DNA of 64,000 nucleotides from a candidate division TM6 bacterium GW2011_GWF2_28_16 (GTDB lineage: Bacteria > Patescibacteriota > Microgenomatia > UBA1400 > PJMF01): NCBI GenBank assembly GCA_001029715.1, contig CP011212.1:398936-462935 (forward strand). Direction: 5' to 3'. The notes beneath the pieces are model-generated. The model had not been told where the DNA came from and made no database searches. It was given only the letters and a program-made list of their open reading frames with translations. This document shows, one piece after another, positions 3,596 through 53,773 of this stretch (within the stretch, counting starts at the first letter, position 1; every line of letters begins with the position of its first letter). The translations under genes and the position numbers were made by a program.

Positions 3596-3692
3596 GCCTC
3601 CGGTCCAGTAATGGACCGGAGGCAACAACATTTATTTTGACCAGGATCCTTAATTTTTAAATATTTGAAATTTAAGAATCCTCGTTTTTTTT
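3596..3692 (+). terminator. Tandem terminator: perfect 12-bp GNRA-capped hairpin, then a second hairpin with a U8 tract
   Basis: First hairpin: gcctccggtcca-GUAA-tggaccggaggc. Second: aggatccttaa...ttaagaatcct (one mismatch) followed by tttttttt. Confidence 0.6.
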
Positions 3693-3811: not shown

Positions 3812-3934
3812 TCGCCTTTAGGTGTCCAACCCTCAATCTTTGGTGGCGCCATTTATTTGGCGCCACCAAAATCTTTCCCTTCCTATATTATCTAAAACCT
3901 CTTTTTCAAATTTCGGTTATAATAACTCTTACCT

Positions 3935-12667: not shown

Positions 12668-13685
12668 TCTTGATGCCTTCTTCCATTGGTCTTTTAAAAG
12701 CTTTGCGACCCATGATTAATCCAGCTCCACCAGCTCTTTTATTAATCACGGCCGTTTTGACAGCTGCTTTAAGGTCTTTTTCTAAATCTCCATCTTCGCT
12801 ACTTTCACCACCTGAATTAATCAAACTAATTTTACCGGCATAGCAGTTCATAACTTGTAAGCGTACCATGTCGATTGGATTTTCTGTGCTTAGAGCCTCA
12901 TACATTTCTTTGCTTTGTTTACCAAATTTAAATTTGCGAAAACCACCGTCAATATCTGGCATTTTTTGTTTAATGATATCTGCTTCAATAGTTACTCCAA
13001 GACGATTAGCATAAGAAGTGATATCAGCAGCATTTTCGTAATTGCCATCTTTATCTTCCCAAGCTGAATTTCGAGGGTAGCACCAAAGTATAGTAGCTAA
13101 ACCTAATTGATGAGCTTCATAGAAAGCTTTGGAAATTTCTACTATTTGGCGATTGGATTCCTTAGAACCAAAATATATGGTCGCTCCAATCGCCACAGCT
13201 CCCATGTCATAAGCCTGTTTAACTTGGGCAAATAAGACTTGATCCCATTTATTTGGATAAGTTAAGAGTTCATTGTGGTTAATTTTGACGATGAAAGGAA
13301 TTTTGTCAGCATATTTTTTACTGACTAGCCCTAAAGCTCCTAAAGTAGAAGCAACGCCATTACATTCGGCTTCCATGGCAAGTTTAACTACGTTCTCTGG
13401 ATCAAAATAAATAGGGTTTTTATAAAAAGAATAAGAAGCATTGTGCTCAATATCTTGATCAACCGGTAGAATAGATAAATATCCTGTATTAGTTAGACGA
13501 CCATGTCCATAAAGTCGCTCAAGATTGCGAATTACTTTTTCATTACGATCGGAATTAGCAAAAACGTTTTGTACATGATTACTTTTAGGGAATTCAATTA
13601 ATTCCTTTGGCAATAATTGGCACTGATGAGCCATAAGATAGCGTGCTTCACTACCAAGTAAATCAATTATATCTTGATAAATCAT
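12615..13685 (-). CDS. fbaB: Class I fructose-bisphosphate aldolase (FbaB/DhnA type)
   Basis: 356 aa, collinear with E. coli FbaB over its full length, with long identical blocks (TGYLSILPVDQ, NPIYFDPENVV, IPFIVKINHNE, GAVAIGATIYFGS, ADIIKQKM, TAVINKRAGG.GLI.GRKAFKR). Confidence 0.85.
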   Translation of the reverse strand: MIYQDIIDLLGSEARYLMAHQCQLLPKELIEFPKSNHVQNVFANSDRNEKVIRNLERLYGHGRLTNTGYLSILPVDQDIEHNASYSFYKNPIYFDPENVVKLAMEAECNGVASTLGALGLVSKKYADKIPFIVKINHNELLTYPNKWDQVLFAQVKQAYDMGAVAIGATIYFGSKESNRQIVEISKAFYEAHQLGLATILWCYPRNSAWEDKDGNYENAADITSYANRLGVTIEADIIKQKMPDIDGGFRKFKFGKQSKEMYEALSTENPIDMVRLQVMNCYAGKISLINSGGESSEDGDLEKDLKAAVKTAVINKRAGGAGLIMGRKAFKRPMEEGIKIIQAVQDVYLEEHIGLA

Positions 13686-17779: not shown

Positions 17780-19996
17780 CTAAGAAATTTGATTAAAAAG
17801 TTGATCAGAAACTTCGCTTAATTTAATTTGTAGCGGAGGACCAGATGGATCAATAGGCTCATGTTTAAAACCAATTAAAGCAATGTTTTCTGAGCTGTTA
17901 TCTTTTTCATTCATGGGGTTCACTGTATTATCAATTCCCAGCATAGTTTCTCTAATTTGCGTTTTAATGGTTTTGACTCTGGATTCATCCCAGTTTCCAG
18001 GATTAATCTTGCCTTCAAGTCTTTTGAGAGAAGACAGGATAATACGTTTAAGGGTTTTATCTTCAAGAGTATCCAAATATTTAAGATCTTGCTGAGCTAA
18101 ATAAAAATGTTTGTTAAGTTTTAATAGAGAATAACCAAATTCTTCTTCAACTTCTGAGTTGATACTCGAACTTGGGTTGTCCCAGTCTTTTGGTTGATAT
18201 GAATATGGTAAGACATAAAGATGGGAGCTATTAGTAACTTCTTTTCGTTGATAGTCTTCCATCTGTTCTATTTCTGTTGTTCTATTTTCTGCAATTGGCT
18301 TAGCTGCAATAGTCGAGTTTTGATAAAGATCGCGATTTTTAATTGCTAATAGATATGAAAAAACTACTCTTTCTATCCAAGCTTTTTCAGTAGGAGCTAA
18401 TTTAGATAAGGTTGGAGTTTCCATCTGTTCATTGATTCCAAAAGTAAACACTCTTTTGCCTAGTTGCAAAGAAACTTGTAAATTGTGAGGGCTGACAGTG
18501 CGCTTGAAAGTAAGTTGTTTCAAGCCAACTTGAAACAATAATTTGTCCTGACCCTGAGACTGATCAAGGTTTACACTAATACCTCTTTTGGAAACAGGGA
18601 ACATTCCACCCCTAGCTTGGTCTTTGAGTTCTGTTAGCGGAGTGGTTTCATTTAAATTTAATTCAGGACGAAGAAAAGCTAAAACAGCTGCAACTTCGGT
18701 TACTTCTAATGGTTTGTTAGATAAATTAAGTAAATGAGGAAGATTGGTTCTAAATTCTGCAAGCGAAGATGGATCTAATTCGTCTAAATTATCTAGAGTA
18801 ATATTTCCTCTCCAAGTCAGAAGAATATTTTCTTGATTATTAACAGTTTTTGAGGGGAGTACAAAACCACCAAAATTGCCTTCTTTTTTTATTAGAAGCA
18901 ATTCTTCTTCCATAATGAATTCAATCAGCTTATTTGCCAAGGGATCATGAGTAAAATTGTCAGATTTTTCACAAAATGCTGTCAGATTTTGTTCTGACCC
19001 TGTCATTTTGGCAAAAGAATCTAAACCAGCCGATCTTACGTTTTTGTTAAAAATGCGGTCATCAGCTAAAGAAATAGGAGGACATTCAAAAACTTTTCTT
19101 AAAATTATTTCTTTGGCTTTTGATTTTTTGAGATTAACCCTCATTTGGGCTTGTCTCTCTTTTCTTCTAGAGCTGACATGAGTAATCGTTAATTTTCCGT
19201 TTTCATCATATTTTCCACGACTATCTACTGCTACATAAGCACTCAGGGCGTCAAATGTTTCCAGAACATACTGAGCCTGACAACGCATTTTATAGTCAGG
19301 GTGATGGAGCCGTGTAAAACTAAGAGCGTCGAACAAATTATAGGAGTTTTCTATTTTGTCGTAACCTAAGTCCTCAAATGTTTCTAAAATTATTAATTGT
19401 TTTTCGCGATCTTTACATTTTAAAATTTCTGAAGAAAGCCGATAAAGATTGCTAATAATTTTTTTGAAAGGGAGATCGTCAATTTTTGGAATGGCCTGCT
19501 CCGGAGTTCCCTTCCTTTTTCTTTTTTTATCAGTTTCGTTTTTTGGATCAAATTCTTCTTGATTAATTGATCCTCTAATTCCATTAATTCGAGATTGAGT
19601 AGCAGCATCTTTTAATAAAGGTGAGACAGCATCAGTGCCTTGATTAAAATACTCAATTTTATCTTTATGTTCTTGAAAAAATTTATCTAAAGTGTGGTCG
19701 AAAATTTGGAAATCAGACATGCCCATATTTGTTGCAAGAATCAAAGCTTCTTGGTATTTAGCACTCAACTTAGAGTTTAGACCATTTATTAGAAAAGCAA
19801 ATTCATCATGGCTGCACCAGTGTTGTTCTTTTTGATCAGAGAGAAGTTCTAAAACCTTATCTAAGATTTTTTCTTCAAATTCTTCTAAAAGAAGATAAGA
19901 ACTTTCTTTAATTCCCGCATAAATTGGCAACAGATCGGAAAATTTTTGTGCCCGCTCAATTTGTTGATAATTTTCTAGTGGCTCACTTTCGCTCAT
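17780..19996 (-). CDS. Hypothetical large soluble protein (738 aa), unknown function
   Basis: ORF track; long uninterrupted frame with non-repetitive composition and a KKRKRKG basic patch. No nucleotide-binding or nuclease motif recognised. Confidence 0.55.
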   Translation of the reverse strand: MSESEPLENYQQIERAQKFSDLLPIYAGIKESSYLLLEEFEEKILDKVLELLSDQKEQHWCSHDEFAFLINGLNSKLSAKYQEALILATNMGMSDFQIFDHTLDKFFQEHKDKIEYFNQGTDAVSPLLKDAATQSRINGIRGSINQEEFDPKNETDKKRKRKGTPEQAIPKIDDLPFKKIISNLYRLSSEILKCKDREKQLIILETFEDLGYDKIENSYNLFDALSFTRLHHPDYKMRCQAQYVLETFDALSAYVAVDSRGKYDENGKLTITHVSSRRKERQAQMRVNLKKSKAKEIILRKVFECPPISLADDRIFNKNVRSAGLDSFAKMTGSEQNLTAFCEKSDNFTHDPLANKLIEFIMEEELLLIKKEGNFGGFVLPSKTVNNQENILLTWRGNITLDNLDELDPSSLAEFRTNLPHLLNLSNKPLEVTEVAAVLAFLRPELNLNETTPLTELKDQARGGMFPVSKRGISVNLDQSQGQDKLLFQVGLKQLTFKRTVSPHNLQVSLQLGKRVFTFGINEQMETPTLSKLAPTEKAWIERVVFSYLLAIKNRDLYQNSTIAAKPIAENRTTEIEQMEDYQRKEVTNSSHLYVLPYSYQPKDWDNPSSSINSEVEEEFGYSLLKLNKHFYLAQQDLKYLDTLEDKTLKRIILSSLKRLEGKINPGNWDESRVKTIKTQIRETMLGIDNTVNPMNEKDNSSENIALIGFKHEPIDPSGPPLQIKLSEVSDQLFNQIS

Positions 19997-26687: not shown

Positions 26688-27884
26688 ATGCCGAAAAAGA
26701 ATTTAATAGTTGCCTTAGTTTTATATGTAGTCAGTGCAAGTTTATCTTTTGCTGCCTTCTCTTATCTCTCCAAAGATTCCTTGGCTAACTCAGTTGCTAA
26801 TAAGCAAGCTGAGGACCCAAGTCAGACCTTGCTAAGCAGTCTATTAGATATAGATCCAAATGAAGCTAAAGATCAGGTTTGTCCACTAAACGGTGCCTAT
26901 TACACTCAAACTGAAAAAACTGCTTGGGAGCAAAGGCGCCCTCTTTTTGTAATGATTGAAAATACTCCAGATTCTCGTCCTCAGGCTGGTTTAAGTCGTG
27001 CTGATGTGGTTTTTGAAGCTGTTGCGGAGGGCGGGGTAACTCGTTTTGGAGCTTTGTTTTATTGTGCTGCTCAGTATCAAGATCTAACTTTGGCTCCTAT
27101 TCGCAGTGCTAGAACATATTTTGTTGATTGGGCATCTGGTTTTAATTTACCGATGTATGTACACGTAGGTGGAGCTAATGTTTCTGGACCAACTGATGCG
27201 CTTGGACAAATTGGCGATTATGGTTGGGAGGGTGAAAACGACATTAATCAATTCTCAGTGGGTTATCCAACTTTTGTGCGCAACTACAATCGTATTCCTG
27301 GCAAAGAAATTGCTACCGAGCATACCATGGAAACAACCACTGAAGGTCTTTGGGAAGTAGCTGCTGATCGTGATTGGACCAACCTAACTCCAGCCAGAAC
27401 AGTGGCTAAAAAAGCAGTTCCCGCCGCTTCTTGGCAAAGTGCATACAAAAGTTGGACTTTCGAAAGCGATAAGGTTCCTGCTGGTTCAGTTAGCAAAGTT
27501 TCTTACGATTTTTGGACTGGCTATAATGATTATTCGGTCGAATGGAATTATGATAGCGCCACTGATTCTTATAAAAGAGTTAATGCTGGGGAAGCATTCA
27601 CTGACATAAATAACGACGAACAAGTTGCTAGCAAGACCATGATTGTTTTATTAACCACAGAAAAAGGACCAATTAATGAGAAGAAGCATATGCTTTATGG
27701 CACTACTGGTCGCGGTAGCGCTCTCATTTTTAAACATGGTCAGGCTCCAATTGAAGCCAATTGGGTTAAAGCAGATCGCGAGTCAGAGCTAGAATTCGTA
27801 GATGTCAGAGGTAAAGCAGTTGAATTAGCCAGAGGTCAGGTTTGGATTTCTGTCTTAGCGACTGGCTCTGAAGTTGTCTATTAA
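26688..27884 (+). CDS. Secreted/anchored protein, DUF3048 (YerB-like) family candidate
   Basis: N-terminal TM, then RPLFVMIENTPDSRPQAGLSRADVVFEAVAEGGVTRF, which I recognise as resembling the YerB/DUF3048 lipoprotein family. Call made from memory. Confidence 0.45.
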   Translation: MPKKNLIVALVLYVVSASLSFAAFSYLSKDSLANSVANKQAEDPSQTLLSSLLDIDPNEAKDQVCPLNGAYYTQTEKTAWEQRRPLFVMIENTPDSRPQAGLSRADVVFEAVAEGGVTRFGALFYCAAQYQDLTLAPIRSARTYFVDWASGFNLPMYVHVGGANVSGPTDALGQIGDYGWEGENDINQFSVGYPTFVRNYNRIPGKEIATEHTMETTTEGLWEVAADRDWTNLTPARTVAKKAVPAASWQSAYKSWTFESDKVPAGSVSKVSYDFWTGYNDYSVEWNYDSATDSYKRVNAGEAFTDINNDEQVASKTMIVLLTTEKGPINEKKHMLYGTTGRGSALIFKHGQAPIEANWVKADRESELEFVDVRGKAVELARGQVWISVLATGSEVVY

Positions 27885-27915
27885 AACTAGTTTGCTTTTT
27901 TGCTATTTTTTGTTA

Positions 27916-27948
27916 ATATTGAAATTGAGTACAAATTGATTTCAATAT
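27916..27948. promoter_or_regulatory. Perfect 10-bp inverted repeat ATATTGAAAT-N13-ATTTCAATAT immediately upstream of the RBS of the wHTH gene; candidate operator
   Basis: Seen directly; the right arm ends 1 nt before the AAGGAG RBS of the 27960 gene. Confidence 0.35.
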
Positions 27949-27959
27949 AAGGAGTAGCC

Positions 27960-28559
27960 ATGGCAGATCTAAGCGATTTATTAGTTTCAAAAGTTAGAGT
28001 AAAAATGCTTTCACTTTTCTTTGAAAAGCCGAGTGAAATGTATTACGTTAGAGAGATTACTCGTTTAGTTAAAGAAGAGATTAATGCCGTTCGTCGTGAA
28101 TTAGACAGAATGCTAGAGTGTGGTTTGCTGAAAAGCGAGCAACGAGCCAATCGTCTCTATTATTTTCTCAATAAAAAATATTTATATTTCCAAGAATTGC
28201 AGAGAATTGTAATCAAAACAACTGGTCTTGGCAAAAAAATTCGCAAATTTAGACGTAAATTAGGCAACTTGAGTTATGTGGCTTTTACTGGAGCCTTTTT
28301 AAATCAAGAGAAGCTAAATAAAGACGAATTGGATATTTTAATTGTTGGAGAAGTTGTTTTGCCAGAAATAGAAGATTTGATAAAAACTGAGGAAAAAAGT
28401 TTTGGTCGAGAGATCAATTACGCAGTTTTAGAAACTGAAGAATTTGAATTTCGCAAGGCTCGTCGAGATCCTTTCATCATGGAAGTAATGTATGGTGCCA
28501 GAGTAATGATTATTGGAGATGAACTTGAATTTTGTCATCGCGAATTGCCAACAATCTAG
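27960..28559 (+). CDS. Winged-helix DNA-binding domain fused to a minimal nucleotidyltransferase-like domain (putative regulator)
   Basis: N-terminus: MYYVREITRLVKEEINAVRRELDRMLECGLLK, ArsR/MarR-like. Middle: GAF-x12-DELDILIVGE fits the hG[GS]..DhDh pattern of the Pol-beta NTase superfamily. Confidence 0.5.
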   Translation: MADLSDLLVSKVRVKMLSLFFEKPSEMYYVREITRLVKEEINAVRRELDRMLECGLLKSEQRANRLYYFLNKKYLYFQELQRIVIKTTGLGKKIRKFRRKLGNLSYVAFTGAFLNQEKLNKDELDILIVGEVVLPEIEDLIKTEEKSFGREINYAVLETEEFEFRKARRDPFIMEVMYGARVMIIGDELEFCHRELPTI

Positions 28560-28610
28560 TTGTCTAATTTATTATTTTTTGCTAGAGTGAGCTGTCACGG
28601 TAAAGTCTTT

Positions 28611-29984
28611 ATGAAAAAGCAATCTTTGGCTAAATCTTTATTTTTAATTTTTTTCCTAACTGTTTTTGCTGCCTTTATTGCTTTACCAGATAAAATTGGT
28701 GATTTTACTAAGCCAAAAATTGACTTTTATATACTAGGTAAGCATGTTTATAAAGATTATCAATTGCGAAAGGGCTTGGATATTCAGGGTGGGATGCAGG
28801 TTACTCTTGAAGCAGAAATGGAGCAAATTTCTGAAGAAGACAGGGCTACTGCCTTGGAGGCGTCTAGGGAAATTATTGCCAAAAGAGTTGATCTTTATGG
28901 TATTAGCGAATCTTCAATTCAGACCTCCAAAGCAGAAGGTAAGAATCGTTTAATCATTGAATTGCCTGGAATTTCTGATCCAGCAGAGGCTTTGGAGTTA
29001 GTTGGTAGAACCGCTTTATTAGAATTTAAATTGCAGAGAGAATTAACAGATGAAGAAATGAATGAGGCAACAGTTTCTCCACAAATTTGGCTCAACTCTT
29101 TTGTTGATACTGGTCTAACTGGTAAGCAGCTCAAAAGATCTCAAGCTCAACTAGACCCGCAAACTTCAAAGCCAGTAATTTCTTTAGAAATGAATGATGA
29201 TGGTAGAGAACTATTTGCCGATATCACAAAAAATAATGTTGATCAGGTTCTAGCCATTTTTATTGATGGCGTGCCAATTATGACACCAGTGATTTCTACA
29301 GCAATTCTTGATGGCAAAGCAATTATTAGTGGTAATTTTACAATTGATGAGGCCAAAAATTTAGCTATTCAGCTTAATGCGGGTGCGCTGCCAGTTAACA
29401 TTAAAGTTTTAGAGCAAAAAACCATAGGAGCTAGTTTGGGCGATGAATCAATTCAAAAAAGTGTCAAAGCAGGCCTGATTGGTTTAGCTATGGTTCTTTT
29501 ATTTATGATTCTTTATTACGGTTGGTTGGGTTTTGTGGCTGATATTTCTCTGATAATTTATGCAATTCTAACCATCGCTCTTTATAAAATTTTTGGAGTA
29601 GTTCTGACATTGCCTGGGATCGCTGGTTTAATTTTAACTATTGGCATGGCTGTTGATTCTAATATTTTAATTTTTGAAAGAATGAAGGAGGAAATAAGAA
29701 TTGGTCATCCTTATGCTCGAGCAATGGAGCTTGGTTTTGGTCGTGCTTGGGACAGTATTAAAGATGCCAATTTAGCCTCTATTTTCACGGCTTTAGTCCT
29801 CATTAATCCACTTAATTTTTCTTTTCTTAATACAAGTGGTTTAGTCAAGGGTTTTGGTCTGACTTTTTTACTCGGTACTTTACTCAGCTTATTTACTGGA
29901 GTTTTAGTTAGTCGTTTGTTGCTTAGGGCTTTTCTGCCTCTTTTTAATCGAGAAAAACGAATAGGCAAGGAATCTAAATCATGA
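28611..29984 (+). CDS. secD: Protein translocase subunit SecD
   Basis: N-terminal TM, large periplasmic domain, C-terminal 6-TM SecD core (LIGLAMVLLFMILYYG..., GIAGLILTIGMAVDSNILIFER). Start placed at MKKQSLAK; the frame opens at 28560. Confidence 0.8.
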   Translation: MKKQSLAKSLFLIFFLTVFAAFIALPDKIGDFTKPKIDFYILGKHVYKDYQLRKGLDIQGGMQVTLEAEMEQISEEDRATALEASREIIAKRVDLYGISESSIQTSKAEGKNRLIIELPGISDPAEALELVGRTALLEFKLQRELTDEEMNEATVSPQIWLNSFVDTGLTGKQLKRSQAQLDPQTSKPVISLEMNDDGRELFADITKNNVDQVLAIFIDGVPIMTPVISTAILDGKAIISGNFTIDEAKNLAIQLNAGALPVNIKVLEQKTIGASLGDESIQKSVKAGLIGLAMVLLFMILYYGWLGFVADISLIIYAILTIALYKIFGVVLTLPGIAGLILTIGMAVDSNILIFERMKEEIRIGHPYARAMELGFGRAWDSIKDANLASIFTALVLINPLNFSFLNTSGLVKGFGLTFLLGTLLSLFTGVLVSRLLLRAFLPLFNREKRIGKESKS

Positions 29985-30856
29985 AATTAATGAGGTTTAA
30001 AAAAATATATTTTGCGATTTCTTTATTCTTTTTAATTCCAGGAATGATTTCCTTGTTTTTATTTGGTTTGAAGCCAGCTATTGATTTTACTGGGGGCTCT
30101 TTACTTGAATTGCAATTTTTAGATCAAGGAGAAAACTCCAATTATTCAGAGGCTAATTTCAAAGATAGTATTGCTAGCTTATATGAAGCAAACGTGGTCC
30201 AGAGTTCAGGAGACAATAAGATGATTGTTAAAGGTAAAGAAATTACTAATCAAGAAAAAGATGAAATCGTCAGCCAACTTAATCAGGTATATGGACAAGT
30301 AGAAGTTTTACGCTTTGAAACAGTTGGACCAGTTTTAGGTGCCGAGCTTTTGAAAAAAACTCTGGCAGCTGTTTTCTTAGTTTCTGGGATTATCACTTTT
30401 TATGTTTGGAAGCAATTTGATGAACTCAAATACGGCGTTTGTGCTGTTCTAGCTATGTTGCACGATTCGCTTATTTTAATTGGCGCATTCAGCCTATTAG
30501 GGCATTTTTTCAATGTTGAAGTTGATGTTCTATTTGTAACAGCTTTATTAACAACACTATCCTTTTCTGTTCACGATACAATTGTTGTTTATGACCGGAT
30601 TAGAGAGCTTAAAAGAAAACACACTCGTTTTTCATTTGAAGAAATTACTAGTGCCGCTGTTCTAGAAACTTTGAGTAGATCAATTAATAACTCAATGACG
30701 ATTATTATCATGTTATTAAGCTTGGCAATTTTAGGAGGAGATAGCATTCGTTGGTTTGTAATTGCCTTATTAATTGGTGCAATTACGGGGACCTATTCGA
30801 GTACTTTTACTGCTGTACCTTTACTTTTAGTTGTTGGAAAAAAGAAAATTAAATAA
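29981..30856 (+). CDS. secF: Protein translocase subunit SecF
   Basis: 291 aa; SecF-type 6-TM core (HDSLILIGAFSLLG..., DTIVVYDRIRE). 4-nt overlap with secD. Confidence 0.8.
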   Translation: MKLMRFKKIYFAISLFFLIPGMISLFLFGLKPAIDFTGGSLLELQFLDQGENSNYSEANFKDSIASLYEANVVQSSGDNKMIVKGKEITNQEKDEIVSQLNQVYGQVEVLRFETVGPVLGAELLKKTLAAVFLVSGIITFYVWKQFDELKYGVCAVLAMLHDSLILIGAFSLLGHFFNVEVDVLFVTALLTTLSFSVHDTIVVYDRIRELKRKHTRFSFEEITSAAVLETLSRSINNSMTIIIMLLSLAILGGDSIRWFVIALLIGAITGTYSSTFTAVPLLLVVGKKKIK

Positions 30857-45755: not shown

Positions 45756-46560
45756 GAATACTTGTTTAAAAGATAAAAAAAGAAATAGTTATCTCCTTAA
45801 TTTCATTAAATTGACAGTTGAAAGAAGAACAAATGAACTCAGGTTATTGCAATTAAAAAAATTAACTAAAATAGCTCCATTGATAGATTTGGGAAAATTA
45901 ACTGCTGGACTAGTGCATGATATTAGACAGCCATTGTCAGTATTGAGTCTAATTTTGCAAGACGCTAAAAGAAATAAAAACATAATTTCTAACTTGGACC
46001 AGGCCTTTTTAGCAATTGATAAGATTGATGATCTTTCAAAAATGAGTGCCTGCATACTTTTTAACGAATCAGAACTTGAAGTTTTCAATTTAAACTTAGA
46101 AATTAATAAGCTAATCAGTTTATTTGAATACAAATCTAGAACGAAAAAAGTAAAGATTATTTTCAAGCCCAGTAGAGATTATGAGCTTTATGCAGATAGA
46201 AAAAAATTAAATCAAGTTTTGGCTAATTTAATTTTAAATGCATTGGAATCTTATGAAAATTTAGAAAAAAGTGATAAAGACATATTTATTAAATTAATTA
46301 GAAAACCAAGAAATTTACTTATTAAAATTAAAGACTATGGCGTTGGAATAAAAAAAGAAAATTTATCTTTAATATTTGAGCCAAATTTTTCTTCTAAAAT
46401 TAAAGAAGAGGCACTTGGTTTTGGGCTTTATGTTGGTCAAGAAGCAATGGCAAAAGGATATGGCACAAAGATTAAAGTTGAGAGTAAAGATAAATTTGGC
46501 TCAACTTTCACCTTGTTTATTAAAAGTAAATTTGTCTTAGATGAAAATAAAGCTAAGTAA
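45724..46560 (+). CDS. Soluble (no TM, no sensor domain) histidine kinase
   Basis: H-box GLVHDIRQPLSV, N-box LANLILNALES, G1 DYGVGI, G2 GFGLYVGQ. 32-nt overlap with the upstream NTase gene. Confidence 0.7.
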   Translation: MKLANKLSVFENTCLKDKKRNSYLLNFIKLTVERRTNELRLLQLKKLTKIAPLIDLGKLTAGLVHDIRQPLSVLSLILQDAKRNKNIISNLDQAFLAIDKIDDLSKMSACILFNESELEVFNLNLEINKLISLFEYKSRTKKVKIIFKPSRDYELYADRKKLNQVLANLILNALESYENLEKSDKDIFIKLIRKPRNLLIKIKDYGVGIKKENLSLIFEPNFSSKIKEEALGFGLYVGQEAMAKGYGTKIKVESKDKFGSTFTLFIKSKFVLDENKAK

Positions 46561-48356: not shown

Positions 48357-48786
48357 TTCTAAAAGTGGCACCTTTATTTTTTTTAGAAATAATTTCTAAT
48401 TTAGCTTTAAATTCCTTTTCTAAAATTTCATTAATTTGGAACATATTTGAATTGGAGTTTTTTTCTCTAAATAAAAACCCTTTTTGTTTGACTAGTGCTT
48501 TTTCTAAAAAAGACAGGCCAATTCCTCCACCCGTTATACTTATTGAAAGTTTTTTTGAACTTTCGATATTGCTAGTAATTAGAATTACTTTATTTTCTGA
48601 ATTGCTATTTGGATAAGCTTGTTCTGCATTCTTTATTAGTTTGTTTAGTAATTCTTCAAAAATATATTTTTTGCCAGGAATTCTAATTTCATTAGGAAGA
48701 TCAATTTTCAAAATGTAAACAAACTTCTTTTGCTTGATACGTAAAATGTTGGTGGTTTTTATAATTATTTCTCCAACATTTTTCAT
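48337..48786 (-). CDS. Stand-alone HATPase_c (GHKL ATPase) domain protein
   Basis: N-box-like LLNKLIKNAEQAY and G2 ITGGGIGLSF, with no DHp/H-box. 20-nt convergent overlap with the response regulator. Confidence 0.5.
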   Translation of the reverse strand: MKNVGEIIIKTTNILRIKQKKFVYILKIDLPNEIRIPGKKYIFEELLNKLIKNAEQAYPNSNSENKVILITSNIESSKKLSISITGGGIGLSFLEKALVKQKGFLFREKNSNSNMFQINEILEKEFKAKLEIISKKNKGATFRIIFPLN

Positions 48787-50321: not shown

Positions 50322-51471
50322 TAAGCAAGAGGTAGAAGCTAGGGATTAGCCAAGTAATGGCTTTTTGCAGGCTTTCCAAACTACTTGAATCCAAGTGAAA
50401 ACTCATCCAAGGCAGATAGTACATCCAAGGTAAATAGCGTAGCAATGAAGAAAAGGAAAAAACGATTAATAAATTTCTGAGAAATTTATTTTTGATTAAA
50501 GGTAAAAAGATTAGAGACCAAAGTAAATACCAAGGTAAAAACTGTTTGGATCTTTCAGTTAGCAATGGAGCGAACATTGCTAAAGCCATTAAATCGTAGG
50601 TAGGGAATTTGCCTAGTCTTCCTAGCCTATTTTTGAGTGCTAAATAAATTATTAGAGGTAACAAAACAATTGTGGCAAATTTAATAGAAATTGATACAGT
50701 AAGCAAAACAGCAATTAAGATAATCTTGAAAATTTTTTTCTTTTGTAAATTAGTCGCTAGATAAACAGCTAATAAAGCTGGAGCCAGCATCCATAGATCA
50801 TTATGAGCACTGCTGAGAATTTCAATTAAAAGTAATGGATTTAAAAAGAATAAAGCTAATTTAAAATAGTTAGCTTTCTTGAAAAACTTTTCACTAATCA
50901 GCAGAGCTAGAATTAAGGAAAGAAAAGCAAATAGTTTAAAAACGATAAAGGTGGAAAGAAATTTCCCCAGTCCAGCTAGATATGGCAACAGTGACAAAGT
51001 AGTCCAACCATAACCATATGGAGCCGGGGTGTGAATGTTGTTCATGAAACGCAACATCGGATCATTAGGAAAATTAATGGCAGTTTGAACATGTGGATTA
51101 GCCCCATACTCGATGATCATTTTTGCATTAAAAATATAATTAAAAAGATCGTGAGAGAGGGCGTTGTAAGAAAAAATTAGGGGCAAACTGACAATGATTA
51201 GAAACTTCCAAAAATTTTGGCGAACATCAAGTTTTAAGCCATGCCAATTTTTAAGGATAAGCAAATAATTAATGAAGATCAAAGTGATTAGAACGCCATA
51301 GAAAATAGTTCTAAAATTTTGTAATGGTAAAACATGTTGCCAAAGATAAGTTTGAAGAGAAACAAAAAAATTAAGATTCAGCAAAGTCAGATTAGGATCG
51401 GTCAAAACAAAAGAAAAAATCGCAAAAACAACAAATAAAAAAAAATAACTTTTAAGTAAAAAACTTTTCAT
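50281..51471 (-). CDS. Polytopic membrane protein, GT-C-like (DUF2029/GT87-like mannosyltransferase candidate)
   Basis: ~10 TM; hydrophobic profile and loop pattern only. Confidence 0.4.
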   Translation of the reverse strand: MKSFLLKSYFFLFVVFAIFSFVLTDPNLTLLNLNFFVSLQTYLWQHVLPLQNFRTIFYGVLITLIFINYLLILKNWHGLKLDVRQNFWKFLIIVSLPLIFSYNALSHDLFNYIFNAKMIIEYGANPHVQTAINFPNDPMLRFMNNIHTPAPYGYGWTTLSLLPYLAGLGKFLSTFIVFKLFAFLSLILALLISEKFFKKANYFKLALFFLNPLLLIEILSSAHNDLWMLAPALLAVYLATNLQKKKIFKIILIAVLLTVSISIKFATIVLLPLIIYLALKNRLGRLGKFPTYDLMALAMFAPLLTERSKQFLPWYLLWSLIFLPLIKNKFLRNLLIVFSFSSLLRYLPWMYYLPWMSFHLDSSSLESLQKAITWLIPSFYLLLSATFFLFNRRSEK

Positions 51472-52228: not shown

Positions 52229-53773
52229 TTATTTATTATAACTAGTTAAAACACTAATTTCTGGACCATTTTCCATTTGAAAAACTTCGTCAATAGTTCT
52301 ACTTGGAAAAACAACTACTTCATAGAGAGATGTATCGAAAATATCATTTCTAACTTCTTTTTCATCATTAATAATAAAAAGTTTAGTGGCTAATTGATGA
52401 TCTTCAAGTTTGACTATTTTGTTTTCTTTAGTACTTAGAAAATATCGATAACTCATGCCATAAGAATCTTTAGATGGGGAAAAGAGAACAATATTATATT
52501 TTTCATCTTTATTAACTCTTCTATAAATCTCATCGCTAGTTTTACTCATGTCTCCTGGTTTCCAGCCAGCGTCTTTAATTGAATATCTACTTATATTACT
52601 TGAAATAAAAAATGCTAAAAATGGCAAAATAATTGCCAACATTAACCATTTATTTTTAAATTTAGCAAAGAAAAGGCCGTAAAGAATATAAACAAAAGGA
52701 AATAGATAGGCGATGTAGTGTTCATAAACCTCATGCTGGTAAAGACTAATGCCAATTATGCCAGGTAACAAATAAGCTAATAATACGATCTCGCTATCTT
52801 TGATTTTATTTTTATTTTTAACTAAATAAAATACGCTTGAAAGCAAAAGAAGATATAAAAGTGGATAATTTATTTTGTTAGCTGCAAAGCTTGGTTCAAA
52901 AAGAATTTGTGAAGCGCGATTTTTCAGATCGATTGTTACAAATTTAGTAATTGCGCCAAAACCTTCTCGACCCTTTTTTCTTTGTAAGTCAAAGCTCTCT
53001 TCCTTAACTAAAATCTTTGTGAAAGATTTGGCATTTGTGAAGTCATGCTTGTAATCAAAAAGCATGAGGGGAGTTAGAGAAATTATGAAAATAAGAACTG
53101 CTAGCGCAACATGTTTAAAAAACCTTTTTTCTTCGACAAAGAAATGTTTTTTGTTATTTTTAATTTTAGCAATGAGTTGGATTAAGAATACAATTCCTGC
53201 TCCTGATAAAGAGAGCAGAGTTACATAGTGCAATTGAATTAACAGGCTAAAACAAAGTGAAACCAAAAGCCAATATTTTGTATTTTTTTTCCAAGCTAAA
53301 AAAGTGAAATAAAACATCAATAAACTAAAAAATGGGGCGATGTTTGGGTTCCAACTAAAACGGGCAAGATTAACCACGCCGGCCGACAAAGTGAAAAAAA
53401 TTGTCGATATATAAGCAGTTTTTTTGTTAAAAAGTTTTTTAGTAATTTTGAAGAGCAAAAAAACTGTTAGAACACTTAAGCCAGCCACGGCATAAACTGG
53501 CCCAATTGGATTTGGGTAAGACAAGAACAAAAATGGCAACATAAAATAATAATAAAAAGGTCCTAAATACATGTTGCCAATACTAGTTACTGGACCAATA
53601 AAAACAGGATCTTTTTCTTTAAAAATTTGTGAAACTACTAAAGCATCTCTTCCCTGATCTCCTTGAAACATAAAAGTGTTTTTGAGATTAAAGAAACGTA
53701 AGAATATGGCTAAAGCTAAGATAAAAAATAAAAATAAGTATTCTTTTTTTATTTTTCTAATAGAGTCAAACAT
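52229..53773 (-). CDS. GT-C-type membrane protein (paralog of the window-end gene at 63591)
   Basis: ~12 TM. N-terminal FQGDQGRDALVV...IGPVTSIGNMYLGPFYYY aligns with FQFDHGKDSLAV...IGPWTSIPGLYFGPAWYY of the 63591 ORF. Start trimmed to MFDSIRK; the ORF-track frame opens at 53836. Confidence 0.55.
   Translation of the reverse strand: MFDSIRKIKKEYLFLFFILALAIFLRFFNLKNTFMFQGDQGRDALVVSQIFKEKDPVFIGPVTSIGNMYLGPFYYYFMLPFLFLSYPNPIGPVYAVAGLSVLTVFLLFKITKKLFNKKTAYISTIFFTLSAGVVNLARFSWNPNIAPFFSLLMFYFTFLAWKKNTKYWLLVSLCFSLLIQLHYVTLLSLSGAGIVFLIQLIAKIKNNKKHFFVEEKRFFKHVALAVLIFIISLTPLMLFDYKHDFTNAKSFTKILVKEESFDLQRKKGREGFGAITKFVTIDLKNRASQILFEPSFAANKINYPLLYLLLLSSVFYLVKNKNKIKDSEIVLLAYLLPGIIGISLYQHEVYEHYIAYLFPFVYILYGLFFAKFKNKWLMLAIILPFLAFFISSNISRYSIKDAGWKPGDMSKTSDEIYRRVNKDEKYNIVLFSPSKDSYGMSYRYFLSTKENKIVKLEDHQLATKLFIINDEKEVRNDIFDTSLYEVVVFPSRTIDEVFQMENGPEISVLTSYNK

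What the first reader, a model, noticed from the sequence alone, without database searches (positions are those of the whole stretch)
27916..28559. Perfect 10-bp palindrome (ATATTGAAAT-N13-ATTTCAATAT) directly upstream of a wHTH-nucleotidyltransferase fusion gene
The inverted repeat ends 1 nt before the RBS of a gene whose product combines an N-terminal winged-helix domain with a minimal Pol-beta-type nucleotidyltransferase signature (G-x12-DELDILIV). The geometry suggests autoregulation by its own product. wHTH+NTase fusions are not classical transcription factors. Minimal NTases are usually toxin-antitoxin or defense-associated, in MNT/HEPN pairs, yet no HEPN partner is adjacent.
Basis: partly seen in the sequence, partly recalled or inferred. 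Interest (0 to 1): 0.55.

Follow-up and report, generated by a model that had tools for sequence, protein, structure and literature searches.

The report
Toxin-less antitoxin-like regulator before secDF
A small DNA-binding protein of Patescibacteria, related to the antitoxin of a toxin-antitoxin pair, has lost its toxin partner and its enzyme motif, sits at a fixed place in front of the protein-export genes secDF, and carries a conserved symmetric DNA site on its own promoter, probably to repress itself.

Summary
The palindrome and the gene are real. ATATTGAAAT (27916-27925), 13 nt, ATTTCAATAT (27939-27948) lies 1 nt before AGGAG and 11 nt before the ATG of a 199-aa ORF.

The 10-bp arms are not the conserved element. 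They decay to 4-7 of 10 matches in orthologues that are 82-90% identical. What persists across about 40 genomes is the spacer core, TTGAGTACA. It sits in a 23-bp interrupted dyad, ATTGAgtaCAAaTTGattTCAAT (27924-27946), placed on or just after a -10 box.

The protein is a winged-helix plus minimal-nucleotidyltransferase fusion (AlphaFold pLDDT 93.8). It matches PADLOC candidate PDC-M05A over its full length (E 2.5e-37). The three non-Patescibacteria relatives examined have an overlapping downstream gene, annotated HEPN in one, and all 112 relatives compared keep the canonical GSX10DXD motif.

The Patescibacteria clade has no HEPN partner. It holds a fixed frr-rseP-DUF3048-[gene]-secD-secF position, and its motif is degenerate (never Ser; Glu for the first Asp in 58 of 79).

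Most likely it is a domesticated, toxin-less, probably non-catalytic antitoxin-like repressor that autoregulates a wHTH-MNT-secDF unit. DNA binding and regulation are inferred, not shown. Novelty: new variant of a known kind. Interest is moderate.

The parts
26688..27884 (+). Upstream gene, DUF3048 family secreted or membrane protein; conserved upstream neighbour
   Evidence: Pfam PF11258 (4.6e-29) and PF17479 (8.6e-19). It lies upstream of the wHTH gene in 75 of the 80 related loci.
27892..27897 (+). Candidate -35 hexamer TTGCTT (inferred)
   Evidence: Read from the sequence. It lies 16 nt upstream of TAATAT. It was not picked up by the strict consensus scan.
27911..27919 (+). Candidate extended -10, TGtTAATAT (inferred); overlaps the left arm of the palindrome
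   Evidence: A TG-extended TAnnnT hexamer ends 5-7 nt upstream of GAGTAC in the window clade and in L013/L019/L026.
27916..27925 (+).
   Evidence: Conserved only in the closest relatives.
27924..27946 (.). Conserved 23-bp interrupted dyad, ATTGAgtaCAAaTTGattTCAAT, centred on 27935; proposed operator
   Evidence: Position table of 39 anchored instances. Dyad pairs k=1-3 and k=7-11 are kept in most lineages. Top PWM score in the window is 31.6 bits, and the next best is 13.6.
27925..27933 (+). Nearly invariant core TTGAGTACA; predicted to cover the transcription start
   Evidence: GAGTA is 39/39, the following C is 30/39 and the next A is 35/39. This is the only TGAGTACA in 64 kb.
27939..27948 (+). 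Right arm of the palindrome, ATTTCAATAT; contains the conserved TTCAA half-site
   Evidence: L114, the same species, has ATTCCAATAT.
27950..27954 (+). Shine-Dalgarno sequence AGGAG
   Evidence: 5 nt before the ATG.
27960..28559 (+). wHTH-MNT fusion gene, 199 aa (PDC-M05A-like, orphan)
27960..28184 (+). N-terminal winged helix-turn-helix (residues 1-75); recognition helix at 41-54 (INAVRRELDRMLEC), wing at 57-70
   Evidence: AF2 secondary structure. Foldseek hits to AF1382, HlyU, SqrR, MarR and AspA. Profile hits to the ArsR family. NCBIfam HTH_metalloreg matches 65 of 94 members.
28263..28535 (+). C-terminal minimal-nucleotidyltransferase-like alpha/beta domain (residues 102-192)
   Evidence: AF2 model. 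PF01909 and PF18765 hits in 35 and 32 of 94 family members. MNT/MntA structures found by profile and Foldseek.
28290..28334 (+). Degenerate catalytic motif G111-A112-X10-E123-L-D125, in place of GSX10DXD
   Evidence: Residue requirements in MntA are from PMC7641770.
28614..29984 (+). secD, 54 nt downstream; probably co-transcribed
   Evidence: Pfam SecDF_P1_head, SecD_1st and SecD_SecF_C. No terminator-like site between the genes. Conserved adjacency.
29981..30856 (+). secF
   Evidence: Pfam SecD_SecF_C, 8.9e-49.

Best explanation
The gene encodes a domesticated, toxin-less relative of the wHTH-MNT antitoxin of NTase/HEPN (type VII, PDC-M05-like) toxin-antitoxin modules.

In this Patescibacteria lineage it is vertically inherited at a fixed place, directly upstream of secD-secF. 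Its nucleotidyltransferase domain has lost the canonical catalytic residues. It therefore most likely serves as a dimerisation and/or nucleotide-sensing module rather than as an enzyme.

The winged-helix domain is proposed to bind, as a dimer, the 23-bp dyad ATTGAgtaCAAaTTGattTCAAT (27924-27946). This dyad overlaps the -10/+1 region of the gene's own promoter. Binding would occlude RNA polymerase and negatively autoregulate the gene, together with the downstream secDF where they are co-transcribed. The perfect 10-bp palindrome is a lineage-specific elaboration of that site.

Shown: the fold, family membership, absence of HEPN, degenerate motif, synteny, and motif conservation and position. Inferred: DNA binding by this protein, repression, co-transcription with secDF, and loss of catalysis.
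For: Protein:
- The AF2 model has pLDDT 93.8 and shows a wHTH followed by an NTase alpha/beta domain.
- Foldseek finds ArsR/MarR-type regulators and MntA. The family profile hits ArsR-family and MNT structures.
- Of 94 family members, 35 hit PF01909 (best 7.5e-11) and 32 hit PF18765 (best 1.1e-14).
- The window protein matches PDC-M05A over its full length (E 2.5e-37, residues 3-191 against 5-195 of 201). PDC-M05 is described as an NTase plus a HEPN protein (PMC12988326).
- Three of three non-Patescibacteria relatives examined have an overlapping 145-148-aa downstream gene. It is annotated PF05168 HEPN in one of them. They sit next to integrase or R-M genes.

Orphan status:
- No PDC-M05B or HEPN match among the neighbours, nor in any window ORF of at least 50 aa.
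- The order frr-rseP-DUF3048-gene-secD-secF holds in nearly all 80 loci.

Motif:
- TA-type relatives (n=112): G 112, S 112, first D 110, second D 112.
- Patescibacteria clade (n=79): Ser 0 (K 30, R 26, A 10); first acidic position E 58, D 14, non-acidic 7.
- In MntA, the G27S/S28T and D39E/D41E variants were made to confirm the motif's role in adenylylation, and they neutralise HepT less well (PMC7641770).

DNA:
- The core is invariant in 39 upstream regions from proteins down to about 55% identity.
- A TAnnnT hexamer ends 1-8 nt upstream of the core in 35 of 39 instances.
- The motif stays with the wHTH gene when a 2.1-kb cassette is inserted upstream (L001 and others). It also stays when secDF is not downstream (L029, L034, L042).
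- A PWM scan finds no other comparable site in the 64-kb window or in about 650 kb of related loci.
- TA-type relatives also carry inverted repeats directly upstream, for example TGTAG-N9-CTACA twice in L201.
Against: - No experiment shows that this protein binds this DNA; another factor could recognise the motif.
- In about half of the loci the gene abuts the DUF3048 gene (gap under 40 nt). In those loci no GAGTAC motif was found, either there or upstream of DUF3048, yet the wHTH is just as conserved. Autoregulation at this site therefore cannot be the protein's only, or a universal, function.
- The dyad is asymmetric: the left half is invariant and the right half is loose. Its outer half-sites are 17 bp apart, which is unusual for a simple dimer.
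- The promoter elements and transcription start are inferred. The strict consensus scan found no + strand promoter here.
- E123 and D125 are still carboxylates and 14 of 79 members keep DxD, so residual or altered catalysis is not excluded.
- A second promoter-like TGCTAGAGT lies before secD, so secDF may not depend on this promoter.
Confidence: 0.6

Rival explanations
1. It is still an active MNT-type antitoxin or enzyme. The GAX10EXD site would retain nucleotidyltransferase activity and modify a HEPN toxin encoded elsewhere, or a new substrate. The wHTH would only provide TA-style autoregulation.
For: The NTase fold is intact and modelled with high confidence. Two carboxylates, E123 and D125, and a conserved E151 remain. 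D125 is kept in 75 of 79 members and 14 of 79 keep DxD. The domain is under very strong purifying selection, with 76% mean column identity.
Against: The motif Ser is lost in 79 of 79 members. The first Asp is Glu or non-acidic in 65 of 79. In MntA, the G27S/S28T and D39E/D41E variants neutralise HepT less well and were made to confirm the motif's role in adenylylation (PMC7641770). No HEPN homologue was found in the window. The housekeeping synteny is fixed, unlike the mobile contexts of the TA-type relatives.
Confidence: 0.15
2. The conserved motif is not this protein's operator. It would be a promoter or initiation-region element, or the site of a different regulator, for the secDF transcription unit. 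The wHTH-MNT protein would then act elsewhere.
For: The core always lies on or next to a -10 box. The motif is absent where the gene has no promoter of its own, although the wHTH stays conserved there.
Against: The distance between the -10 box and the core falls into two classes, 1-3 nt and 5-8 nt. That is not expected for a fixed promoter element. No other promoter-like place in the window has the core. The motif stays with the wHTH gene when secDF is not downstream (L029, L034, L042). HEPN-linked relatives also have inverted repeats at the same place.
Confidence: 0.17
3. The inverted repeat acts as an RNA hairpin in the 5' leader, such as a translational or stability element that occludes the ribosome-binding site, or as a terminator of the upstream gene.
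For: The repeat ends 1 nt before the Shine-Dalgarno sequence. Read-through from the DUF3048 gene is possible, because no terminator-like site was found between the genes in the window.
Against: The transcribed part folds at only -2.1 kcal/mol, z = +1.3, and 182 of 200 shuffles fold at least as well. There is no Rfam match. The paired positions are conserved rather than covarying. The C-to-A change in the core is not compensated. In 23 loci the -10 box abuts the core, so the left half would not be transcribed. The arms are not conserved. There is no T-run after the repeat.
Confidence: 0.05
4. The perfect 10-bp palindrome is a chance feature of AT-rich intergenic DNA with no function of its own.
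For: The window has 10 such repeats against 5.8 +/- 2.4 expected. The arms decay quickly among close relatives, and a strain-level SNP breaks one.
Against: This holds only for the outer arms. The inner core and the TTGA/TCAA half-sites are conserved far beyond neutral expectation.
Confidence: 0.3

Closest known systems
PDC-M05 (PADLOC phage-defence candidate): M05A nucleotidyltransferase + M05B HEPN protein
   Same: Full-length HMM match to M05A (E 2.5e-37, residues 3-191 against 5-195 of 201). Same size of about 200 aa and same wHTH + MNT architecture. Inverted repeats lie directly upstream of the gene in the relatives L201, L203 and L205.
   Different: No HEPN (M05B) partner, either adjacent or elsewhere in the window. 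The housekeeping neighbourhood is fixed, rather than variable and next to integrase or R-M genes. The catalytic motif is degenerate. The window protein scores lower against M05A (127 bits) than the HEPN-linked relatives do (178-187 bits).
MntA/HepT type VII toxin-antitoxin system (MNT adenylyltransferase antitoxin; PMC7641770)
   Same: Homologous minimal NTase fold. Foldseek hit to 6m6u_F, profile hits to MNT/MntA chains, and NCBIfam MntA_antitoxin matched by 29 of 94 family members. The motif register is the same, G-x-X10-acid-X-D.
   Different: S28 corresponds to A, K or R, and D39 corresponds to E. There is no HepT substrate. An N-terminal wHTH of about 85 residues is present.
ArsR/SmtB-type winged-helix repressors
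   Same: wHTH fold, with weak profile similarity: NF033788 at E 1.7e-5, and SqrR, ArsR, YgaV and SmtB at E 0.002-0.01. An imperfect inverted-repeat site overlaps the regulator's own promoter, which is the usual autorepression layout of this family (general knowledge).
   Different: All scores are below the curated cut-offs. The C-terminal dimerisation helix is replaced by linker helices and an NTase-like domain. No metal-site residues were examined.
AbiE (AbiEi wHTH antitoxin + AbiEii NTase toxin, type IV TA / abortive infection)
   Same: It combines a winged-helix autoregulator with a Pol-beta-superfamily NTase (general knowledge). Two relatives give weak AbiEi hits (E 0.002-0.008).
   Different: AbiE consists of two separate proteins. 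There is no AbiEii (DUF1814) similarity, and the window protein itself gives no AbiEi hit.

Membership tests
PDC-M05 / wHTH-MNT + HEPN module | Protein matches the M05A profile over its full length | tested here: met
   PDLC04368, E 2.5e-37, residues 3-191 against 5-195 of 201
PDC-M05 / wHTH-MNT + HEPN module | Adjacent, usually overlapping, HEPN-domain partner gene | tested here: not met
   The next gene is secD. The neighbours give no PADLOC hit. A profile built from three partner proteins finds nothing in the window ORFs, best E 0.07-0.9. None of the 80 syntenic loci has room for a partner gene between the wHTH gene and secD.
PDC-M05 / wHTH-MNT + HEPN module | Variable, island-like genomic context | tested here: not met
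   The order frr-rseP-DUF3048-gene-secD-secF is conserved. The HEPN-linked relatives instead sit next to integrase or R-M genes.
Minimal nucleotidyltransferase (MNT, PF01909/PF18765; MntA) | Pol-beta-type NTase alpha/beta fold | tested here: met
   AF2 model, residues 102-192, pLDDT 84-97 per block. Foldseek hit to MntA 6m6u_F. Profile hits to 8xeh, 9xbd, 2rff and 5yep. 35 of 94 relatives hit PF01909. The window protein alone gives no Pfam NTase hit.
Minimal nucleotidyltransferase (MNT, PF01909/PF18765; MntA) | Catalytic motif GSX10DXD | tested here: not met
   The window has G111-A112-X10-E123-L-D125. In the clade, Ser is 0 of 79 and the first Asp is 14 of 79. The HEPN-linked relatives have 112 of 112 and 110 of 112.
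Minimal nucleotidyltransferase (MNT, PF01909/PF18765; MntA) | Nucleotidyl transfer to a substrate (AMPylation of HepT) | not testable with these tools
   Needs a biochemical assay.
ArsR/SmtB family repressors | Profile match above the curated threshold | tested here: not met
   PF01022 at 12.8 bits against a cut-off of 22. NF033788 at 24.6 bits against a cut-off of 55.
ArsR/SmtB family repressors | Winged-helix fold with recognition helix and beta-wing | tested here: met
   AF2 elements H30-37, H41-54, E57-62 and E65-70. Foldseek hits to HlyU, SqrR, AF1382 and BigR.
ArsR/SmtB family repressors | Binds an inverted repeat in its own promoter | not testable with these tools
   A conserved dyad is present at the promoter. 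Binding was not tested.
Known RNA families (Rfam) | Covariance-model match in 27700-28700 | tested here: not met
   No match at E <= 1.

The most novel reading that the evidence does not exclude
A toxin-antitoxin antitoxin has been captured as a core, lineage-wide transcription factor of a genome-reduced bacterial group (the Microgenomates branch of Patescibacteria). Its pseudo-nucleotidyltransferase domain would act as a nucleotide or energy-state sensor that tunes expression of the SecDF protein-export motor through the GAGTAC dyad. The regulator would also have other targets, since it is equally conserved in genomes where the autoregulatory site is missing.
Probability: 0.2. Interest if true: 0.65.

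Novelty: new variant of a known kind. Interest (0 to 1): 0.42.

Why it matters
Patescibacteria have very small genomes and few recognisable regulators, and almost none of them has a known binding site. This study gives an unusually conserved regulator candidate (76% mean column identity) found in at least 587 species-level genomes. It has a defined candidate operator and a defined neighbour, secDF.

It is also a clean example of a toxin-antitoxin or defence-candidate component losing its toxin and its catalytic residues and becoming a fixed housekeeping gene.

There is a practical consequence. Defence-system finders that use the PDC-M05A model will hit this orphan in many Patescibacteria genomes. 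It should not be read as a defence or TA gene there.

Tried and rejected
- RNA element: rejected. There is no Rfam hit. The fold is -2.1 kcal/mol, weaker than most shuffles. The paired positions show no covariation.
Only one (L114, the same species) encodes the protein. The others are chance matches in unrelated DNA, so this says nothing about a regulon.
- PWM scan of the window and of 80 loci: no second site.
- Search for the motif upstream of DUF3048 in the compact loci: nothing convincing. The GAGTAC matches about 1.5-1.9 kb upstream in several loci are a coding 'EY..NYG' motif.
- Reading TTGAGT as a -35 box with a downstream -10: the spacing is inconsistent across loci.
- First structure prediction from a shallow alignment: the wHTH came out poor (pLDDT about 50). 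It was replaced by a 94-sequence alignment.
- The single sequence gives no Pfam NTase hit. Homology was established through family members and profiles instead.

Full report
OBSERVATION

- ATATTGAAAT lies at 27916-27925 and its exact reverse complement ATTTCAATAT at 27939-27948, with a 13-nt spacer.
- One base follows, then AGGAG (27950-27954), then ATG at 27960.
- The ORF 27960-28559 encodes 199 aa.
- The protein motif is G111-A112-X10-E123-L124-D125, i.e. G-x10-DELD, not G-x12.

A perfect inverted repeat of at least 10 bp with a loop of at most 30 nt is not rare here. The window has 10, and dinucleotide shuffles give 5.8 +/- 2.4. About 0.009 are expected per 100 nt, so its position in a 75-nt promoter region is suggestive but not proof.

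WHAT IS CONSERVED IN THE DNA

A scan of GTDB species genomes gave 587 loci encoding a relative, and I kept 80.

Upstream regions aligned on the start codon show that the 10-bp arms are not the conserved element.
- In register, the arms pair at 10, 9, 7, 7, 6, 4, 6, 5 and 7 of 10 positions in loci whose protein is 82-100% identical.
- Beyond that they pair at 1-5 of 10.
- A near-identical strain (L114, protein 100% identical) already has ATTCCAATAT in the right arm.

- GAGTA is invariant in 39 upstream regions, flanked as (A)(W)TTGAGTA(C/A)A, then ATT(G/T), then TTCAA.
- These positions form an interrupted dyad centred 8 nt after the G of GAGTAC. In the window this is ATTGAgtaCAAaTTGattTCAAT, 27924-27946, centre 27935.
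- The outer TTGA/TCAA pairs and the inner CAA/TTG pairs are kept in most lineages. Some lineages have the cleaner TTGAGT-N9-ACTCAA (L019, L026, L034).
- A PWM built from these sites scores 31.6 bits at 27923. The next best site in the 64-kb window scores 13.6 bits.
- In about 650 kb of related loci no other site reaches the range of the upstream sites, apart from one in the non-syntenic locus L050.

POSITION RELATIVE TO THE PROMOTER

In 35 of 39 instances a TAnnnT hexamer ends 1-8 nt upstream of GAGTAC. There are two classes.
- In 23 loci, TACAAT, TAGAAT or TAAAAT ends 1-3 nt before the core. Several of these have a TTGnnn box 17 nt upstream, read (L021, L031, L036, L044, L045).
- In the window clade and in L013/L019/L026, a TG-extended -10 ends 5-7 nt before the core. 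In the window this is TGtTAATAT, 27911-27919.

The core therefore always covers the discriminator and start region, but at two different offsets. That argues for a repressor site overlapping the promoter rather than a fixed promoter element. The promoter and the transcription start are inferred; the strict consensus scan found no + strand promoter here.

The motif travels with the wHTH gene.
- It stays adjacent when a 2.1-kb cassette is inserted upstream (L001, L002, L004, L006, L011). In L001 the cassette encodes a sortase-like protein and a secreted repeat protein.
- It is present in L029, L034 and L042, where secDF is not downstream.
- It is absent where the gene abuts the DUF3048 gene (gap under 40 nt, about half of the loci). 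It was not found upstream of DUF3048 in those loci either.

NOT AN RNA ELEMENT

- There is no Rfam match.
- The transcribed part folds at -2.1 kcal/mol, z = +1.3.
- The dyad positions are conserved rather than covarying, and G-T versus A-C mismatches (19 versus 9) give no clear RNA signal.
- In the first promoter class the left half would not be transcribed.

THE PROTEIN

The single sequence gives only sub-threshold wHTH hits and no NTase hit.

The family is large.
- More than 3,400 proteins in the 90%-identity clusters, all from Patescibacteria where a source names them.
- 2,160 50%-identity clusters at E <= 1e-10.

Within the 35 close members the mean column identity is 76%.

With a 94-sequence alignment, AlphaFold gives pLDDT 93.8 and pTM 0.85. 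The model has three parts.
- A winged helix: H11-22, H30-37, recognition helix H41-54, and wing E57-62/E65-70.
- Linker helices at 77-101.
- A beta-alpha-beta NTase core at 102-192.

Supporting evidence for both domains:
- Foldseek finds ArsR/MarR/HlyU/SqrR/AF1382/AspA-type wHTH proteins and MntA (6m6u_F), at weak E-values of about 1e-3.
- The family profile hits ArsR-family chains (E 0.002) and MNT chains (8xeh at 0.007; also 9xbd, 2rff and 5yep).
- Of 94 members, 35 hit PF01909 (best 7.5e-11), 32 hit PF18765 (best 1.1e-14), 65 hit NCBIfam HTH_metalloreg and 29 hit MntA_antitoxin.

KNOWN RELATIVES

PADLOC's PDC-M05A model matches the protein over its full length (E 2.5e-37). PDC-M05 is described as a nucleotidyltransferase plus a HEPN protein. 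It is TA-like, enriched in Archaea and not validated experimentally (PMC12988326).

I checked three non-Patescibacteria relatives of about 30-37% identity. Each is followed by an overlapping 145-148-aa gene, annotated PF05168 HEPN in L201. They lie in variable contexts next to an integrase or an R-M methylase. Their upstream regions also carry inverted repeats:
- TGTAG-N9-CTACA, twice, in L201
- GTTTACAtttGTAAAC in L203
- GTAGC-N7-GCTAC in L205

An operator in front of the wHTH-MNT gene therefore looks like a family trait.

WHAT DIFFERS IN THIS CLADE

1. No HEPN. The neighbours are DUF3048 and SecD/SecF. They have no PADLOC M05B hit. A profile of the three partner proteins finds nothing in any window ORF of at least 50 aa.
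2. Fixed synteny. The order frr - rseP - small gene - DUF3048 - gene - secD - secF - (CCA enzyme, opposite strand) - recJ holds in nearly all 80 loci.
3. A degenerate catalytic motif.
   - HEPN-linked relatives (n=112): G 112, S 112, S-D-x-D with 110 and 112.
   - Syntenic clade (n=79): the Ser is never present (K 30, R 26, A 10). The first Asp is E in 58, D in 14 and non-acidic in 7. G is 65 of 79.
   - In MntA, G27/S28 and D39/D41/D71 bind the ATP phosphates and two Mg2+ ions. The G27S/S28T and D39E/D41E variants were made to confirm the motif's role in adenylylation, and they neutralise HepT less well (PMC7641770).
   - The clade has its own invariant residues instead: E151, E161, D170, F172 and the basic stretch FRKxRRDPF.

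The domain is thus under strong selection, but probably not for the ancestral catalysis.

MECHANISM PROPOSED

A dimer of the protein binds the dyad at 27924-27946 through its wHTH domains. This blocks RNA polymerase at a promoter whose -10 box (27911-27919) and start lie on the site. The result is negative autoregulation.

secD starts 54 nt downstream with no terminator-like site between the genes, and in many loci the gap is 3-60 nt. secDF is therefore probably part of the same unit, although a second promoter-like TGCTAGAGT precedes secD.

The NTase-like domain would provide dimerisation and possibly nucleotide sensing. All of this paragraph is inference from geometry, conservation and analogy with TA antitoxins and ArsR-type repressors.

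WEAK POINTS

- Binding is untested.
- The dyad is asymmetric, and its outer half-sites are 17 bp apart.
- The motif is missing in about half of the genomes, although the wHTH is equally conserved there. The protein must therefore have another role or other targets.
- Residual catalysis cannot be excluded.
- The regulon could not be explored. The one metagenome scan returned chance 15-mer matches.

VERDICT

- The functional site is the conserved GAGTAC dyad, not the perfect arms.
- The protein belongs to the wHTH-MNT family that PADLOC models as PDC-M05A (MntA-like).
- Its NTase motif is degenerate.

This is a new variant of a known kind: an orphan, domesticated, probably non-catalytic antitoxin-like regulator fixed upstream of secDF in Patescibacteria. 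Interest is moderate.

Noticed in passing
L001:1877-3905 (also L002, L004, L006, L011): A 2.1-2.2-kb insertion lies between the DUF3048 gene and the operator/wHTH gene. In L001 it encodes a 463-aa secreted repeat protein with a C-terminal sorting-like signal and a 202-aa sortase-like protein.
   Followed up: partly
L048, L052, L059, L063, L067, L070-L080, 10-25 nt upstream of the wHTH-MNT start codon: More distant orthologues lack the GAGTAC motif but share a CTGCCC motif shortly before the ATG. Its nature is unknown; it could be another operator or a leader or translation signal.
   Followed up: no
window, whole 64 kb: The hexamer GTACTC is absent (0 against 4.2 expected; 5 of 200 shuffles give 0), while its complement GAGTAC occurs 9 times against 4.9 expected. 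This may reflect codon or strand bias.
   Followed up: partly
L114:3219-3233 (contig Ga0180007_10000001, 751,110 bp): This is the same species as the window. Its wHTH-MNT protein is 100% identical and its neighbours 98-99% identical, on a 751-kb metagenome contig. The right palindrome arm carries a T-to-C change (ATTCCAATAT). The contig is a good target for a whole-genome motif and HEPN scan.
   Followed up: partly
window 27884-27915 and 28553-28584: A 32-nt direct repeat (75% identity) of T-rich sequence ending in TTTTTTGCTA occurs in both intergenic regions flanking the gene. The second copy gives a TG-extended -10-like TGCTAGAGT before secD, a possible separate secD promoter.
   Followed up: no
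L201:2900-3000, L203:2900-3000, L205:2900-3000: The HEPN-linked relatives have their own inverted repeats directly upstream of the wHTH-MNT gene: TGTAG-N9-CTACA twice, GTTTACAtttGTAAAC, and GTAGC-N7-GCTAC. These are candidate operators of PDC-M05-type modules.
   Followed up: partly
window 3596-3623, 3839-3870, 13147-13195, 18515-18538, 46203-46235, 48743-48782, 50468-50490, 53417-53465, 53724-53756: Other perfect inverted repeats of at least 10 bp with loops of at most 30 nt. The first two are G+C-rich.
   Followed up: no
L047, L050 (and L029, L034, L042, L070, L074): A few family members lie outside the usual synteny or lack secDF downstream. L050 has a more symmetric site, TTGAGTACAAAATGTATACAA, about 900 nt upstream on the opposite strand.
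   Followed up: no
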